Source: Escherichia phage vB_EcoS-26175I. Taken from it: a stretch of 64,000 nt of DNA. How positions within the stretch are numbered: the stretch's first letter is position 1; every line of letters begins with the position of its first letter. Below, in pieces: positions 1,707-63,126 of the stretch. Under the pieces are notes generated by a model. The model did no database searches. It saw only the letters and a list, made by a program, of their open reading frames with translations, and was not told where the DNA came from. The translations under genes and the position numbers were made by a program. The stretch lies in sequence record NC_133255.1; one strand, written 5' to 3'.

Positions 1707-1870
1707 TTTTAATACTCCGGTTTATTGGGGATTATTCCACAATAGCGCCTCGATACTTTGAAACGCTATTAGATTATAATCCGCTAGGAGTTAGCCTAAA
1801 CATTACCGTTATCCAAATTGTTAAAGAGCAGTTACTACGGGGAACATCTTAAAACCTATCGGCTAGCGTG

Positions 1871-2089
1871 TCAAGCGTTTTTTAAACTTTTTTCGATTTG
1901 ATGGGAGTTATATAAATCAATCATTATATTACGCCACACCATTTCCAGACCTTGCTGCTTGCCTTTCTTGTATTGCTTGAATCGGTATTTTACCGATCGT
2001 TGCGCTACTGTCAACAAATTTTTTGTTCTGCTATCTAATGCACTAGCAGGTTTCGCACTAATCACTAAAGCGTTTTTTGATTTGATCAT
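1871..2089 (-). CDS. small basic hypothetical protein
   Basis: 72-aa ORF with weak RBS. Confidence 0.3.
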   Translation of the reverse strand: MIKSKNALVISAKPASALDSRTKNLLTVAQRSVKYRFKQYKKGKQQGLEMVWRNIMIDLYNSHQIEKSLKNA

Positions 2090-34844: not shown

Positions 34845-35354
34845 TTAATTATTTCGGGCATATTCCCCATGAAGTTTCTCTCTCAGTTGAATTAGAGCTT
34901 CATTTGCTGCTTCAGGAGTACTGTGCAGCCCTGCGGAGTATGACTTACCTTTAAACATTATTCTATCCTGCCACTGACCAGATGCTTTGTGGTAGGATAC
35001 TCCCTTAAATCCGCTAGTATTCCTAGAAGATTTACTAGCATTATGAGTATTAGTGGTACTATCCGCTGCTCTTAAATTTAAAGGATGTATGTTTAACTTA
35101 TTGCAGTCTTTATGATCAATCATTTCCGGCCTATACCCATAATATAGTATAAATACTATGATATGAGCTAAGTAATCTTGGTGATCAACGTTAACTCTGA
35201 TATACCCAGAGCTTTTGTGCAAAGATCCCGCAGGTTTATTGGCAAACTTAGTATTAAATATCTTCTCCTCTCTGGAGTTTCCGGAGAGCGGATTCCACAC
35301 CAGTACACCATCTTCTAAACGGAATCTATAAAGTATAGACTCATAGTCTAGCAT
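34845..35354 (-). CDS. HNH-AP2 homing endonuclease
   Basis: HNH core IDHKDCNKLNIHPLNLR plus AP2-type DNA-binding segment GVSYHKASGQWQ; 169 aa. Confidence 0.7.
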   Translation of the reverse strand: MLDYESILYRFRLEDGVLVWNPLSGNSREEKIFNTKFANKPAGSLHKSSGYIRVNVDHQDYLAHIIVFILYYGYRPEMIDHKDCNKLNIHPLNLRAADSTTNTHNASKSSRNTSGFKGVSYHKASGQWQDRIMFKGKSYSAGLHSTPEAANEALIQLREKLHGEYARNN

Positions 35355-35387
35355 AAATAGTTCCTAATCTTACAAATTTATGAATAT

Positions 35388-35416
35388 ATTATACAGAAAA
35401 TTTCGGCATTAAGCAA
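35388..35416 (-). promoter_or_regulatory. early sigma70 promoter (TTGCTT / TATAAT)
   Basis: Same module. Confidence 0.55.
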
Positions 35417-35424
35417 GTGAAATT

Positions 35425-35739
35425 TTACTGAACATTGCACTGATATACCTGTTTGATACGTGTCACTGACTTCTTAGTTGGGTTGATAGAAGAACCCTGC
35501 CACCAACGTGATTCTGAGCTGAGAACAGCACCAGGAACAGCTTGTTCTTTTGGCAGAACAATATCAAAACACTGTTCACCCATATTATCTTTAATGTGCG
35601 ACCAAATGTCTAGAGTAAATCGTTCTAGCTTATTACAAACTTGAACTTGACAAAGTTCCTGTTGTGGAGCAGCAAATACAGAAGTAGATACTAGAGTCAA
35701 TGCAAGTACAATGCGTTTCATATTTGATTCCTCTCTCAA
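35425..35739 (-). CDS. secreted Cys-containing protein (signal peptide)
   Basis: 104-aa ORF with N-terminal signal sequence. Confidence 0.5.
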   Translation of the reverse strand: MREESNMKRIVLALTLVSTSVFAAPQQELCQVQVCNKLERFTLDIWSHIKDNMGEQCFDIVLPKEQAVPGAVLSSESRWWQGSSINPTKKSVTRIKQVYQCNVQ

Positions 35740-35751
35740 ATTTATAAATAT

Positions 35752-35780
35752 ATTATACAGAAATTTTCTATATTAAGCAA
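35752..35780 (-). promoter_or_regulatory. early sigma70 promoter (TTGCTT / TATAAT)
   Basis: Same module. Confidence 0.55.
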
Positions 35781-35793
35781 GTGAAAATTTCTG

Positions 35794-35820
35794 TATAATA
35801 GCCCTCGCTTAGAGGGCTAT
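35794..35820 (-). terminator. hairpin TAGCCCTC..GAGGGCTA within a conserved TATAATAGCC-hairpin element
   Basis: Just downstream of the pnuC stop; the same element recurs at 47315-47336. Confidence 0.4.
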
Positions 35821-35827
35821 AGCTACT

Positions 35828-36520
35828 TTATTTGTTAACGCGTACAAAGTATCCTTTATAGGCTCCCATAATAGAGTTACCTAAGAATACTAGCCACATT
35901 GCTAGGATTGCATAAGATGCACCTGTAGATTGAGTAGTTACAAGCCAAATGTACACAGTACCAATGTTAATAGCAATCCAGATCAGCCACTGCTCGGCAT
36001 ACTGCTTAACCATAAGCCACATAGCGATCACACTACCTACCGCAGTAAATGCATCCAACATTGGGAATGGATCAGCCGTAGTAGCTAAGAAACTACCATA
36101 CCCTAACGTGGCTACTGCTAGAATCCCTAGAGTCAGCAGAGCTTGGACTTTAGTCAGAATCTTAGTTGGAACATCTGGCAGATTACTTGGCTTATTTTTA
36201 TGCCATAAGTACATTCCATAAAACTGCATAGGAACGTAGTATAGCAGGTTTAGTGCAGCGTTACCATAAAGATCTGCGTTTAAAGCTGTAATACCATAGG
36301 TAAGAACACCAACTAAGCCCCAAATATAGTTAGAAACACGTCCTTTAGCAACCAAAATAACACAAACTACGTTGGTTATCGCAGTAGCCCAATCTAGAGC
36401 TGTACCATTATAGTTTGCTAAACTAATAAAGGCGACTGCCATAAACAGCCACAGATATTCCAAAGGTTTCCAGTTTTTAAAGTCATTTACAAGATAGTTA
36501 GTCATATTAAAACTCTCCAA
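35828..36520 (-). CDS. pnuC: nicotinamide riboside transporter PnuC
   Basis: 230-aa polytopic membrane protein with PnuC-like Trp/Gly-rich helices; overlaps nadR. Confidence 0.7.
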   Translation of the reverse strand: MESFNMTNYLVNDFKNWKPLEYLWLFMAVAFISLANYNGTALDWATAITNVVCVILVAKGRVSNYIWGLVGVLTYGITALNADLYGNAALNLLYYVPMQFYGMYLWHKNKPSNLPDVPTKILTKVQALLTLGILAVATLGYGSFLATTADPFPMLDAFTAVGSVIAMWLMVKQYAEQWLIWIAINIGTVYIWLVTTQSTGASYAILAMWLVFLGNSIMGAYKGYFVRVNK

Positions 36521-37613
36521 CGTTAAAGTGATGAATCAGCCAGTCTACTGCGTTTACTGCTTCGTCCATACGAACTTTGTAGTCCGGGGAGTCGATGTAA
36601 ACAGTACGTCCTTCAGGGAACTGATTTGGAAATTCTTTCTTCATCTGCTCGAACAGTTCAGAAGTAATTGAACGATCGGAGTTAATACGTAAACCATCAT
36701 CTACCCACTTGACAGTAGGCGCTAGAACAATTACTAAATCGTAATGTTCTTCTTTTGCAATTGCTGTAACCACAGGATTCTTACGATGTTCATAAAGTCT
36801 GTGGTAGAACTCAGTAATAAAAGCATTTGTATCCACAAACATGATCTTATTTGCAGTACGTTCTGCTTCAAACTCTAGCTCTTTGTGTCTGAACGCAATT
36901 TTACTATAATCTTCGCTGGTAAGCAGATTTTCGTTACCAACTAGATCAACTTCACAATACGTTCGACCATATTCTTCTACCCACGAAGTGTTGTATAGCT
37001 TCGCAAGGTATTTTGTTAAAGTAGTCTTTCCCGAGCTTTCAGTCCCAATGAGTACAACCTTACGCACGTAATCTTTACGAACTACGCTAGGAAGAAACTC
37101 CCAATACTTCATAAGATCATTACGAATCATTGTAGCTGAGATTGGAACACGAGTCCGATCAGAATCTACAATATAATGACCAAACTTCGGCAGATATTTC
37201 TTATATTCTGCATCATAGTCTAGTTCGCTAGAGAAAATGGTGATCTCAGGCAAATGTCCATAATTTTCATTAAGGATTCTAGCATATTCCGGCCAACCAT
37301 TCGGATATTCAGGAATATCATCTTCAATAATGTACTCTACCGAAACGTGCTCAATATCCGCGTAAGTTTGTTCTAACCAACGAAGACGATTCTTTAACTG
37401 TAATACTTCCTGATCACGTGTGTTCTGCTTATCCAGCCAACGATTATCATGACTAACTACAATAATAACTCGTTCACACATAGTTGCTGCTGTGTTTATT
37501 AGGTTAATATGACCACGCGTTAATGGTGCGAACTTACCAATTACTAGACCAGTCTTAATCATGTTTGATTCCTCTCTCAAATTTATAAATATATTATACA
37601 GAGAATTTAGCAT
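36507..37613 (-). CDS. nadR: bifunctional NadR-like NMN adenylyltransferase / ribosylnicotinamide kinase (no HTH domain)
   Basis: N-terminal GKFAPLTRGH nucleotidyltransferase motif and C-terminal Walker A GTESSGKTT; 368 aa. Confidence 0.8.
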   Translation of the reverse strand: MLNSLYNIFINLREESNMIKTGLVIGKFAPLTRGHINLINTAATMCERVIIVVSHDNRWLDKQNTRDQEVLQLKNRLRWLEQTYADIEHVSVEYIIEDDIPEYPNGWPEYARILNENYGHLPEITIFSSELDYDAEYKKYLPKFGHYIVDSDRTRVPISATMIRNDLMKYWEFLPSVVRKDYVRKVVLIGTESSGKTTLTKYLAKLYNTSWVEEYGRTYCEVDLVGNENLLTSEDYSKIAFRHKELEFEAERTANKIMFVDTNAFITEFYHRLYEHRKNPVVTAIAKEEHYDLVIVLAPTVKWVDDGLRINSDRSITSELFEQMKKEFPNQFPEGRTVYIDSPDYKVRMDEAVNAVDWLIHHFNVGEF

Positions 37614-37621
37614 TCAAGCAA
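37593..37621 (-). promoter_or_regulatory. early sigma70 promoter (TTGCTT / TATAAT) for nadR-pnuC
   Basis: Same module. Confidence 0.6.
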
Positions 37622-37825
37622 TCGAATTTTTAAACTTTTTAGTGGAAAAATCTCAAGGCATTTAGTGGTAGCACGTTGTTGCTGCAATAATAGTATATGA
37701 TTCTAAAGAATTAAATACTAAAGACCTTAGTTGAATAACTTATGGGATTTTCTTTTACCTTAAATACAGAAAAGCCCGCGCTCTCGGAGGAAACGCGGGC
37801 TTGTTTCGAAGATTACGTGGAACTA

Positions 37826-38770
37826 TTACTTATTACGCATATCCATAATCATTTGACCATCGTAGCCAGTACCGACAACAGTCTGCGGTACACCACCTTG
37901 GTATTTTTCAGCACGAAGCATTTCAACTTCCAGCTGCTTCCAACGAATCATTTCAGGAGTAATGGTACGTTGCAGAGCGGCGTTAGCTTCAGCTTCTTTC
38001 TTAGCTGCGTACAGTTTAGCATCTGCGTCACGTTCGTTAGCTACTGCCATGTTTTCACGAGCGGAACGATCTGCCTCAGCTTGCTTAACTTTCTGCTGTG
38101 CTTCTTGTTCAACACGAGCCAGTTCAGCTTTTGCAGCGTTAACTTGTTCTTCACGAACTTTAGTGTTCTGTACCTGTTCCATGATTACCGGTGGCAGAGT
38201 AATATCCTGAAGGAATACTTGCTTAACCGTGTAACCATAAGGACGCGCGTACTCTTCTACCTCTTGCTGAATAGCAGTTTGCAGTTGAGCCTGAATCTTA
38301 GCGTCGAACAGATCTTGTGCTTTTGGTACGGACTTACCAAACTCACGAATCGTAGACAGCATCTTCTCTTCAACGTATTTGTTCAGAGCCTGATCCTGAG
38401 TACCTGCGTTAACACGGTTCATAGGAGCTTTAGCACCATCAAACTGCAACATAACGGTAATGTCAACAGTAGACTTAAACTTATCCTGGCTAGGAACCTG
38501 AAGTTTATCCAGTTTCATGGAAATATCTTTCGTACTAAAAGTATCAAAAGAAGCAAATGGGTTAACAATATGGAAGCCTGGCAATACAGGATTAGGGCTA
38601 ACTTTACCCAGGAAGGTTTGAGTCTTAACAGTACCATCCTGAACAACTGTATAGGAATTGAGAGCCAGAATAAGAGCACCAAGACCAACAGCAGCACCAA
38701 CACCCCAACGTTTAATAGTACGAATTACTTTTTGCTCAGAAGTCAGTTCTTTAGTGTTTTTAGTAAACAT
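37826..38770 (-). CDS. SPFH / band-7 (prohibitin / HflC-like) membrane protein
   Basis: N-terminal transmembrane segment, SPFH-like core, Ala/Glu-rich coiled coil; 314 aa. Confidence 0.6.
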   Translation of the reverse strand: MFTKNTKELTSEQKVIRTIKRWGVGAAVGLGALILALNSYTVVQDGTVKTQTFLGKVSPNPVLPGFHIVNPFASFDTFSTKDISMKLDKLQVPSQDKFKSTVDITVMLQFDGAKAPMNRVNAGTQDQALNKYVEEKMLSTIREFGKSVPKAQDLFDAKIQAQLQTAIQQEVEEYARPYGYTVKQVFLQDITLPPVIMEQVQNTKVREEQVNAAKAELARVEQEAQQKVKQAEADRSARENMAVANERDADAKLYAAKKEAEANAALQRTITPEMIRWKQLEVEMLRAEKYQGGVPQTVVGTGYDGQMIMDMRNK

Positions 38771-38781
38771 ATATTTCCTTA

Positions 38782-38982
38782 TTATTTAGAAGAGTTATCT
38801 ACTACAGTTACTTTAGTTGCAGAAATAAATAGGCTAGCATCCACAGCAAATTCAGGAGCTTTGATATCTCCATTATGAAATATGACTATACCGGAGACTA
38901 CTTCAAATGCTAGTGCTGTAACATCGGTGGTCTTTAGTTGTGAATGTTCACCTACTACTTTTACTATATATCGTGTTTTCAC
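38782..38982 (-). CDS. hypothetical protein
   Basis: 66-aa ORF. Confidence 0.4.
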   Translation of the reverse strand: MKTRYIVKVVGEHSQLKTTDVTALAFEVVSGIVIFHNGDIKAPEFAVDASLFISATKVTVVDNSSK

Positions 38983-39601: not shown

Positions 39602-40560
39602 ATTGATTCCTTTTGTTAGGTATTTTTAAGAACTCTCGTAAAAGTCCTTAAAGATACCCGGCGGTAGGTAGGGTCAGCCCCCTCAGATTAAGCTCTGCAG
39701 CCCTTCCGTCAGACAATATCTTCCAGTTTAAGTCAGGGTGACTTTGTGGTTATTCAGCTAAGGCTGATCGGCAGCTCTTAGGTCATGACTCCTCGTCGCT
39801 CTTTACTCACCGGCTAGGAAGTTATCTCGAGTTCTTCCTAGCTCTTTAGTCGTGCCATTAAGGTGCCTTCTAAGAGACTTACCTTTTCCCACTTTCGATT
39901 TGGGCATGTATCAGGTAAGGGTAGCCAAATCAGCATCCTAGTCCTACGGGGTCTCATCAAATTACATACCACCGCTTTTCGATATGTAATGCCCATGTCT
40001 ATACGGGAGAAGAAAATGGGCATCTTTCTCTTCGTCTGATAGCTTGAAAAACGACTCCTCATGGAGGAAAAACTTCACTATCTAGGCTAAAGCCTAAAGT
40101 TCTTCTTTAATCCGGCAAAGCAAAACCGTAGTATATACTTTTCAGGAATGGTTGGTTAGTCTGGAACCAACTACCGCGTGGTTTTGGCAGTGCACAGCTG
40201 CCTGCGATTGCTTCGCCATTAGAAGCACCAGTTATCCAACTCTTTCCGACCGTGGGACTCGAACCCACATCTTCAGGCGGTGAAGCCCTAATAATACCTA
40301 TTATACTAGGACGGCAGTGTTGTTACATAAGTGGTTTCGGCACCCCACTAACATAAACTAGAGAAGAGTTTACGAGATTTCGGGACAGCTCCCGAGTTTT
40401 CCGCAGATTTTCAGTTCCCTATCAATAGCAATAAGCGTTAGCTCGTAGCCTCTCTCAGAGTACTTACTAGTCTCCAACTCACCGACTCTATTCAGTGGAA
40501 TAGCTATCCTAGTAGGAGTCACTAAACTCACTCAGCGTAATCGGCTCGCTGTTCTCTAAT
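39602..40560 (-). ncRNA. about 1 kb promoter-driven ORF-poor, relatively GC-rich stretch containing a tRNA-like 3' element (T-arm GTGGG-TTCGAGT-CCCAC at 40252-40268); candidate structured non-coding RNA
   Basis: Early promoter immediately upstream; only a junk-like 74-aa ORF inside. Confidence 0.3.
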
Positions 40561-56626: not shown

Positions 56627-56845
56627 ATGGCAAAAGTACCACAAGAATTTACGGATGGAATTAAGGCAGATCTAGATGTAATGCTAATGGCCCAATGGGA
56701 GTCTGGCTTCCGAGATGGAATTGATTGTTGTGTGGCCGTGCTCGATACTATTAGTTGGCAGCTTATTCAATCTGGAAATGATGCAGAAGGCAACCTTCTA
56801 GCTAACCTTTCTAAACAAATTAGGGAAATGAAATGCGCAGATTAA
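56627..56845 (+). CDS. hypothetical protein (MAKVPQEF...)
   Basis: Start moved to the ATG with GAGAGGAG RBS; the ORF-track start at 56597 is TTG inside the -10. Confidence 0.5.
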   Translation: MAKVPQEFTDGIKADLDVMLMAQWESGFRDGIDCCVAVLDTISWQLIQSGNDAEGNLLANLSKQIREMKCAD

Positions 56846-57684
56846 TTATTGTTAGTGGTGCAGGTTTGAGTGTAGACAGTGGTGTTCGTGCTTTCCGTAC
56901 TGATACTTCTAGTGGAAAATCTTTGTGGGATGAGTACGATCTAGAGGAAGTATGTAGCTTGCCTAACTTTGAAGCTGGCTTCCGTCGCTTCTGTGGTGAA
57001 GATGATCCTAACTACTTCAGTGCTCGTTTCCCTGGCATTGATGAAGATGGTAACGATCTGTATCTCAAGACTCATGAGTTCTACAACATGCGTCGTCAGG
57101 AATTACAGACTGTTGAGCCTAACATTGCCCATCTGCGAATTGCAGAATGGTTCCAGCGTTATGGTGCGGATAGCGTGAAGAACTTCACTACTAACGTTGA
57201 TGACCTTCTGGAACGTGCTGGTATCCCTCGTGATGAAATCATCCATGCTCACGGATACTTGAAAGAGGTGATCTATCGTCGGGGTCGCAATCAAATCATC
57301 GAAGATGTTGGATACACTGCAATTGTTCCTGAAGATTACGAATGGGTAAAACCAAACGTGGTGTTCTTTGGTGAGACAGCTCCGTGGTACATGGGTCAAA
57401 TCAACCTGTTTGATACTCTTACTAGCAATGACATGGTTATTGTGGTGGGTTGTAGTAACCAAGTTATCAACTTCAACTGGGAATTATTTCCTGCTGTATG
57501 TCGTGGAACTAAGATGATGGTTGTTAACCCACAAGTTCGTTATGACGAGCAGCTTGAGTATGAGAAACGTGGTGTTACTGTATGGCGTGCTGGAGCTGCC
57601 GAAGTTTTTGGTAACAAGCATTTCATTGATCAAGTTGAAGCCTTTATGGAAGGAACTATTTATGCACCAGAAAAACATAGGTGA
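56833..57684 (+). CDS. Sir2-like NAD-dependent deacylase / ADP-ribosyltransferase
   Basis: N-terminal GAGLSVDSGVRAFR sirtuin NAD-binding motif; 283 aa. Confidence 0.65.
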   Translation: MRRLIIVSGAGLSVDSGVRAFRTDTSSGKSLWDEYDLEEVCSLPNFEAGFRRFCGEDDPNYFSARFPGIDEDGNDLYLKTHEFYNMRRQELQTVEPNIAHLRIAEWFQRYGADSVKNFTTNVDDLLERAGIPRDEIIHAHGYLKEVIYRRGRNQIIEDVGYTAIVPEDYEWVKPNVVFFGETAPWYMGQINLFDTLTSNDMVIVVGCSNQVINFNWELFPAVCRGTKMMVVNPQVRYDEQLEYEKRGVTVWRAGAAEVFGNKHFIDQVEAFMEGTIYAPEKHR

Positions 57685-63066: not shown

Positions 63067-63095
63067 TTGCTTTCAGGAAAAATTTTCTGTATAAT
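63067..63095 (+). promoter_or_regulatory. sigma70 promoter (TTGCTT / TATAAT) with conserved leader
   Basis: Same module in plus orientation. Confidence 0.6.
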
Positions 63096-63126
63096 AGATT
63101 CATAAATTTGAGAGAGGAGTTTAAAT

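What the first reader, a model, noticed from the sequence alone, without database searches (positions are those of the whole stretch)
35828..37621. PnuC-NadR operon: phage-encoded NAD+ salvage from nicotinamide riboside
A two-gene operon under an early promoter encodes a PnuC-type transporter and a NadR-like protein carrying both the NMN adenylyltransferase motif (GKFAPLTRGH) and a kinase-type P-loop, but no repressor HTH. Together they can convert imported nicotinamide riboside to NMN and then NAD+. With the Sir2-like protein at 56.8 kb this suggests the phage manages the host NAD+ pool, and may counter NAD+-depleting abortive-infection systems (Thoeris, DSR, TIR/SIR2 effectors) by a route different from described phage NAD+ reconstitution pathways.
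Basis: partly seen in the sequence, partly recalled or inferred. Interest (0 to 1): 0.65.

Follow-up and report, generated by a model that had tools for sequence, protein, structure and literature searches.

The report
Known phage NAD+ rebuilding operon (NARP3)

Summary
The window is a T5-like phage, 100% identical over this stretch to Escherichia phage vB_EcoS-26175. On the minus strand, a NadR-like gene (36507..37562, 351 aa) is followed one base later by a PnuC gene (35828..36505, 225 aa). A T5-type sigma-70 promoter precedes them and a hairpin follows. Pfam, NCBIfam and PHROGs support the NMN adenylyltransferase domain, the ribosylnicotinamide kinase domain and the PnuC transporter. There is no room for a repressor HTH.

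The pair is orthologous to Bas30_86/Bas30_87 of phage TrudiRoth (347/351 and 220/225 identical). That pair was published as "NARP3" (Yan et al., Sci Adv, 12 Aug 2026; crystal structures 9X6H/9X6F). All 17 enzyme residues and all 3 transporter residues named there are conserved here. That work showed NR binding by the transporter, NR to NMN to NAD+ conversion in vitro, and NR-dependent rescue of T7 and lambda from Sir2-HerA and DSR1. Osterman et al. had proposed the same operon in 2024.

What remains open:
- The role in the native phage is untested.
- "Early" timing is inferred from the promoter sequence only.
- The Sir2-like gene at 56.8 kb is real but also occurs in relatives without the operon.

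Verdict: already known, low interest.

The parts
37772..37802 (-). Intrinsic terminator of the upstream SPFH/band-7 gene. It marks the 5' boundary of the transcription unit.
   Evidence: A 12-bp GC-rich stem followed by a T run. Folds at -20.7 kcal/mol, z=-4.3. Conserved in TrudiRoth and S113.
37593..37621 (-). Sigma-70 promoter: -35 TTGCTT (37621..37616), 17-nt spacer, -10 TATAAT (37598..37593).
   Evidence: Exact match to a promoter/5'UTR consensus found 17 times in the window against 0 expected. Identical in TrudiRoth and S113. Activity and timing were not measured.
37563..37592 (-). 5' leader with the ribosome-binding site (GAGG at 37574..37571, 8 nt before the ATG).
   Evidence: Read directly from the sequence. 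The same leader precedes the next gene downstream.
36507..37562 (-). NadR-like bifunctional enzyme, 351 aa, orthologue of Bas30_86. Acts as NR kinase and NMN adenylyltransferase; has no HTH.
   Evidence: Family matches. 347/351 identical to PDB 9X6F/9X6H and to bas30_0086. 17 of 17 published ligand-binding or mutated residues are conserved.
37113..37562 (-). NMN adenylyltransferase domain (about residues 1-150), with the GKFAPLTRGH motif at 37509..37538.
   Evidence: Pfam CTP_transf_like and TIGR00125. Aligns to H. influenzae NadR 1LW7 from residue 3.
36621..37061 (-). Ribosylnicotinamide kinase domain (about residues 168-314), with the Walker A motif GTESSGKT at 37023..37046.
   Evidence: Pfam AAA_28, E=2e-31. 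Aligns to the kinase domain of 1LW7.
35828..36505 (-). PnuC-type nicotinamide riboside transporter, 225 aa, orthologue of Bas30_87. Its ATG lies one base after the NadR-like stop codon.
   Evidence: Family matches. E=3.7e-32 to N. mucosa PnuC 4QTN. 220/225 identical to bas30_0087. N45, Q94 and N180 are conserved.
35798..35820 (-). Hairpin directly after the pnuC stop codon: 9-bp stem, 5-nt loop. Terminator-like, but with a weak T tail.
   Evidence: Folds at -17.1 kcal/mol, z=-3.8. Not called by the consensus terminator scan. The next gene's own promoter follows at 35780..35740.

Best explanation
This is the NARP3 NAD+ reconstitution operon of an Epseptimavirus-type (T5-like) phage.

Proposed mechanism:
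1. Host RNA polymerase transcribes the two genes from a strong T5-type sigma-70 promoter. This step is inferred.
2. The PnuC-like membrane protein lets external nicotinamide riboside (NR) into the cell.
3. The kinase domain of the HTH-less NadR-like enzyme phosphorylates NR to NMN, using ATP.
4. Its adenylyltransferase domain joins NMN to AMP from ATP, giving NAD+.

Steps 2-4 were shown for the 98-99% identical TrudiRoth proteins and are inferred here by orthology.

The resulting supply of NAD+ keeps the infected cell able to support replication when NADase defence systems such as Sir2-HerA or DSR1 destroy the pool. This was shown with plasmid-borne genes and heterologous phages. It is inferred for this phage.
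For: - Domain and family support for both genes.
- 347/351 identity to the crystallised Bas30_86 (9X6F/9X6H) and 220/225 identity to Bas30_87.
- All 17 enzyme residues and 3 transporter residues named in the paper are conserved.
- The promoter and gene order are the same as in TrudiRoth.
- Published experiments (PMC13464706): NR binding by the transporter with Kd about 0.66 uM, lost in N45A, Q94A and N180A mutants. HPLC showed NR to NMN to NAD+. Both genes were required, NAD+/NADH pools were restored, and plating of T7 and lambda on Sir2-HerA hosts rose 10^3- to 10^4-fold; DSR1 was also countered. Rescue depended on NR, with EC50 of 3.6-5.6 uM.
- The same operon was proposed earlier for BASEL phages.
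Against: - Nothing was measured on this phage or on any native carrier. The authors name this as a limitation.
- The pathway needs NR from outside the cell, and how much is available in the phage's natural setting is unknown.
- About half of related T5-like phages lack the operon, so it is dispensable.
- Promoter timing is inferred from sequence only.
Confidence: 0.88

Rival explanations
1. The biochemistry is the same, but the main purpose is housekeeping rather than counter-defence. The operon would top up NAD+ for the phage's own NAD+-consuming enzymes, namely the split NAD+-dependent DNA ligase and the Sir2-like protein. The adenylyltransferase domain would also recycle the NMN that the ligase releases.
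For: - TrudiRoth encodes NAD-dependent DNA ligase subunits A and B. By synteny these lie just beyond the right end of this window.
- A Sir2-like gene lies in the window.
- The native role of NARP3 is untested.
- From general knowledge: NAD+-dependent ligases release NMN with each ligation.
Against: - T5-like phages with the same ligase and Sir2-like genes do without the operon, for example slur09 and SUT_E1620.
- The published phenotype is specifically rescue from NADase defence systems.
- The two roles do not exclude each other.
Confidence: 0.25
2. The proteins handle other substrates. The PnuC-family transporter would carry a different vitamin or nucleoside, or one NadR domain would be inactive, so the pair would not make NAD+ from NR.
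For: From general knowledge, the PnuC family includes transporters for compounds other than NR. TIGR01526 scored below its curated cutoff (270 against 341 bits).
Against: - NR binding and two-step NAD+ synthesis were shown for the 98-99% identical orthologues.
- All residues named in that work are conserved.
- NF005988 and TIGR01528 both score above their cutoffs.
Confidence: 0.03
3. The NadR-like protein is a transcriptional regulator of NAD genes, as several GenBank records annotate it ('NadR transcriptional regulator').
For: Annotation in records such as MH370366 and MK370036.
Against: - The protein starts two residues before the first strand of the adenylyltransferase fold.
- It aligns to NadR profile positions 54-407 only and to 1LW7 from residue 3. 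No HTH segment exists.
- The longer 368-aa reading would begin inside the promoter.
Confidence: 0.01

Closest known systems
NARP3 (Bas30_86/Bas30_87 of Escherichia phage TrudiRoth; Yan et al., Sci Adv 2026, PMC13464706; PDB 9X6H, 9X6F)
   Same: - Same genus-level phage group (Epseptimavirus).
- Same gene order, same one-base gene junction, same promoter.
- 98.9% and 97.8% protein identity.
- All functionally tested residues conserved.
   Different: Four substitutions in the enzyme (I33V, V73I, L171I, R260S relative to Bas30_86) and five in the transporter. None falls at a residue named in the paper. This window also carries an extra HNH endonuclease gene two genes downstream of the operon.
Bacterial NadR (E. 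coli 8X7F, H. influenzae 1LW7) with a separately encoded PnuC
   Same: Same two catalytic domains in the same order (E=1e-54 to 1LW7). Same transporter fold family (4QTN). Same NR to NMN to NAD+ chemistry.
   Different: - No N-terminal HTH repressor domain. The crystallised H. influenzae chain 1LW7 aligns from its residue 3 and, from recall, that NadR also lacks a functional one.
- The genes are fused into one operon on a phage, whereas in E. coli they sit at separate loci.
- Sequence identity to the bacterial enzymes is low: the paper reports 17-33% among the NMNAT-containing enzymes it compared.
NARP1 (Adps + Namat) and NARP2 (Nampt + NMNAT-Nudix, KVP40 NadV/NatV)
   Same: Same end result: the phage rebuilds NAD+ and escapes NADase defence systems.
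   Different: - NARP1 uses ADP-ribose and nicotinamide. NARP2 uses nicotinamide and PRPP. Both therefore recycle the breakdown products inside the cell.
- This pathway instead depends on NR imported from outside, and includes a transporter.

Membership tests
NARP3 (phage NadR-like + PnuC-like operon) | Adjacent, co-oriented NadR-like gene followed by a PnuC-like gene in a phage genome | tested here: met
   36507..37562 followed by 35828..36505, both on the minus strand, with 1 nt between the stop codon and the ATG. The genome is a T5-like phage.
NARP3 (phage NadR-like + PnuC-like operon) | The enzyme has NMNAT and RNK domains and lacks the HTH | tested here: met
   The NadR profile is matched from position 54 onward only.
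NARP3 (phage NadR-like + PnuC-like operon) | Residues shown or proposed to bind NR/NMN/NAD+ in Bas30_86 (K10, F11, S37, E80, P84, G89, F110, S112, D115, V139, I141, K163, D164, R167, K168, E230, D275) and NR in Bas30_87 (N45, Q94, N180) | tested here: met
   20 of 20 are identical when numbered from the ATG starts at 37562 and 36505.
NARP3 (phage NadR-like + PnuC-like operon) | Orthology to the characterised pair | tested here: met
   347/351 and 220/225 identical, in a syntenic position between the SPFH gene and the small secreted-protein gene.
NARP3 (phage NadR-like + PnuC-like operon) | NR import, NR to NMN to NAD+ catalysis, and rescue from NADase defence | not testable with these tools
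   Shown only for the TrudiRoth proteins expressed from plasmids.
Trifunctional bacterial NadR (regulator + NMNAT + RNK) | N-terminal HTH DNA-binding domain | tested here: not met
   There is no sequence N-terminal to the NMNAT fold.
PnuC transporter family (PF04973 / TIGR01528) | Full-length match above the curated cutoffs, and similarity to the solved PnuC | tested here: met
   146.6 bits against 27.3 and 120.4 bits against 42.45. E=3.7e-32 to 4QTN over residues 14-220.
NARP1 / NARP2 | Adps + Namat, or Nampt + NMNAT-Nudix gene pairs | not tested
   I ran no dedicated search. The annotation tables of the relatives I read (TrudiRoth from 28 kb to its end, part of S113) list no gene with such a name.

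The most novel reading that the evidence does not exclude
In its native T5-like phage, the operon may work mainly as part of a phage-run NAD+ economy rather than purely as an anti-defence device. It would feed the split NAD+-dependent ligase, which must act on the phage's own DNA, and a zinc-less Sir2-like enzyme of unknown target. The adenylyltransferase domain would recycle ligase-derived NMN. A deletion would then show a replication defect even on hosts with no NADase defence.
Probability: 0.2. Interest if true: 0.35.

Novelty: already known. Interest (0 to 1): 0.15.

Why it matters
The pathway shows that phages can escape NAD+-depleting immunity by importing a vitamin precursor, rather than by recycling the breakdown products. 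That point has already been published for a near-identical operon. This window adds three things:
- An annotation fix. The source records MK907268-71 label both genes 'hypothetical protein', and some relatives mislabel the enzyme as a transcriptional regulator.
- A description of the native promoter and terminator context.
- A reminder that the native-phage phenotype is still untested.

Tried and rejected
- **Mechanical ORF starts.** I rejected the ATG at 37613 (368 aa) and the TTG at 36520 (230 aa). The first lies inside the promoter spacer. With either, the published residue numbers do not fit.
- **Riboswitch upstream of the operon** (for example a pnuC- or NAD-type motif). An Rfam scan of 35300..38000 at E<=1 gave only two sub-threshold matches to unrelated families.
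- **Loss of the operon by recombination between the two near-identical promoter/leader copies flanking it**. The Epseptimavirus SUT_E1620 lacks the operon, but its junction carries a different intergenic sequence, not a single hybrid promoter copy. This idea is not supported.
- **Specific coupling between the Sir2-like gene and the operon.** Sir2-like homologues occur in 978 phage records, including T5-like phages without the operon. This idea is not supported.
- **What fills the slot in Tequintavirus slur09.** Two opposite-strand ORFs have no Pfam match, and there is a small Toprim-domain ORF. This gave no functional lead.

Full report
**What is there**

The window is a T5-like phage. The 2.6 kb around the finding is 100% identical to Escherichia phage vB_EcoS-26175II-V (MK907268-71) and 97-98% identical to many Salmonella and Escherichia Epseptimavirus genomes. 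It carries the tRNA cluster typical of the group, 31 tRNA calls between 25 and 40 kb.

Two minus-strand ORFs fill the reported span. The upstream one matches:
- Pfam CTP_transf_like (E=5.5e-7) and AAA_28 (E=2e-31).
- The NCBIfam NadR model NF005988, above its cutoff (258 against 201 bits). The match covers profile positions 54-407 of 411, so it lacks the HTH part.
- PHROG 3462 'nicotinamide-nucleotide adenylyltransferase' (E=1e-152).

The downstream ORF matches Pfam NMN_transporter (E=9.7e-43), TIGR01528 PnuC (120 against 42 bits) and PHROG 1880. It also aligns to the solved Neisseria mucosa PnuC 4QTN (E=3.7e-32). These matches are far beyond chance.

**Gene models and signals**

The mechanical ORF starts are not the real ones. 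Residue numbering fits the published Bas30_86/87 proteins only with the ATG at 37562 (351 aa) and the ATG at 36505 (225 aa). These starts also equal the gene lengths in RefSeq S113 and in TrudiRoth. The PnuC ATG sits one base after the NadR-like stop codon.

The flanking signals, in order along the minus strand:
- A strong terminator of the preceding SPFH/band-7 gene at 37802..37772.
- About 150 nt further on, a promoter TTGCTT-17-TATAAT at 37621..37593, then a leader with a GAGG ribosome-binding site.
- After the PnuC stop codon, a 9-bp hairpin at 35820..35798 (-17.1 kcal/mol, z=-3.8).
- The next gene's own copy of the same promoter and leader.

This promoter/leader consensus occurs 17 times in the window against 0 expected. 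From memory, it resembles the classic T5 early promoters such as PN25. No Rfam family, riboswitches included, reaches significance around the operon.

**Identity with a characterised system**

A search of PDB sequences found that the NadR-like protein is 347/351 identical to chains 9X6F/9X6H. [quoted passage not shown] Those two PDB entries are Bas30_86 of Escherichia phage TrudiRoth, alone and with NAD+.

I fetched TrudiRoth (MZ501109). Its bas30_0086 and bas30_0087 are 347/351 and 220/225 identical to the window's proteins. They lie in the same place between the SPFH gene and a small secreted-protein gene, behind an identical promoter. All 17 enzyme residues named in the paper as ligand contacts or mutated, and the three NR-binding residues of the transporter (N45, Q94, N180), are conserved.

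**What the paper shows**

- Bas30_87 is a trimeric membrane protein. It binds NR with Kd about 0.66 uM, and binding is lost in the three point mutants.
- Bas30_86 binds NR and NAD+ tightly and converts NR to NMN to NAD+ with ATP in vitro.
- Neither gene alone rescues infection. Together they restore NAD+/NADH pools depleted by Sir2-HerA, raise T7 and lambda plating 10^3- to 10^4-fold, and also counter DSR1.
- Rescue in minimal medium depends on added NR, with EC50 of 3.6-5.6 uM.
- The authors state that the native phage was not tested.

**Distribution**

- In the phage collection, 205 records encode a NadR-like protein at least 80% identical to this one, and 207 encode such a PnuC. The genus type phage EPS7 is among them. 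About 570 further records hold distant homologues of each, in Vibrio, Klebsiella, Bacillus, Enterococcus, Lak megaphages and others.
- In the 114-kb Vibrio phages the two hits lie about 100 bases apart, NadR-like first.
- About 450 T5-like records match the flanking genes, but fewer than half carry the operon.
- The Epseptimavirus SUT_E1620 simply lacks it.
- The Tequintavirus slur09 has, in the same slot, two opposite-strand ORFs with no Pfam match and a small Toprim ORF.

The operon is therefore an accessory cassette in a variable slot, which fits a conditional benefit.

**The Sir2 link**

The ORF at 56833..57684 is a genuine but divergent sirtuin (Pfam SIR2, E=7.9e-22; below all CobB equivalog cutoffs). 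It keeps the GAGxS, TxNxD and HG motifs, read directly from the sequence. It has no cysteines where CobB 1S5P has its zinc-binding ones.

Homologues occur in 978 phage records, including slur09 and other T5-like phages without the operon. It is therefore not specifically coupled to NARP3.

The phage family also encodes a split NAD+-dependent DNA ligase (TrudiRoth bas30_0038/39). By synteny this falls just beyond the right end of the window. These NAD+ users keep a housekeeping role open as a non-exclusive rival, which only a native deletion can settle.

**Verdict**

The feature belongs to the known NARP3 system on every membership criterion testable here. It is not a full bacterial NadR, because the defining HTH is absent. 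Novelty is 'already known' and interest is low. The residual value lies in correcting the annotation of the source records and in the still-missing native-phage experiment.

Noticed in passing
window 34845..35354 (-): An HNH/AP2-domain homing endonuclease gene (Pfam HNH_3 1.8e-8, AP2 6.2e-5) with its own copy of the promoter (35416..35376). It sits between tRNA-Ser(gct) and the small secreted-protein gene. TrudiRoth and S113 lack it at this position, so it looks like a homing-endonuclease insertion.
   Followed up: partly
window 56833..57684 (+): A Sir2-like protein that keeps the sirtuin catalytic motifs but has no cysteines where CobB (1S5P) has its zinc-binding ones. Homologues are found in 978 phage records (T5-like, Vequintavirinae, jumbo phages). 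Its target and role are unknown.
   Followed up: partly
window, 17 sites, e.g. 35740..35780, 37581..37621, 63067..63107: A conserved promoter-plus-leader consensus (TTGCTT-17-TATAAT-ATATTTATAAAT, often followed by TTGAGAGAGGAAT and an ATG) recurs 17 times against 0 expected. From memory, the copy at 63067..63107 is nearly the classic T5 PN25 promoter. The shared leader explains the recurring 'REESNM' peptide at the start of the mechanical ORFs.
   Followed up: partly
L008 (Escherichia phage slur09) 986..3194; L009 (SUT_E1620) 1857..2032: The genomic slot holding the operon is variable among T5-like phages. It is empty in SUT_E1620. In slur09 it holds two opposite-strand ORFs (328 and 138 aa, no Pfam match) and a 172-aa Toprim-domain ORF. 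These could be other accessory or anti-defence cargo.
   Followed up: partly
window 40243..40316 (-): ARAGORN calls a tRNA-SeC with anticodon TCA inside the phage tRNA cluster. It may be a UGA-reading or otherwise atypical tRNA, or a miscall.
   Followed up: no
window 35425..35739 (-): A small ORF just downstream of the operon with its own promoter and a signal-peptide-like N-terminus (MKRIVLALTLVSTSVFA from the internal ATG). It has no Pfam match and is conserved in TrudiRoth and S113 as a 98-aa hypothetical protein.
   Followed up: no
window 35828..37562; GenBank MK907268-71, MH370366, MK370036: Annotation problems in public records. The source phage's records label both genes 'hypothetical protein', and several relatives call the HTH-less enzyme 'NadR transcriptional regulator'.
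   Followed up: yes
window 37742..38878 (+): A 378-aa low-complexity ORF lies antisense to the SPFH/band-7 gene (37826..38770, -; Pfam Band_7 2.9e-19). It is almost certainly a shadow ORF, not a gene.
   Followed up: no
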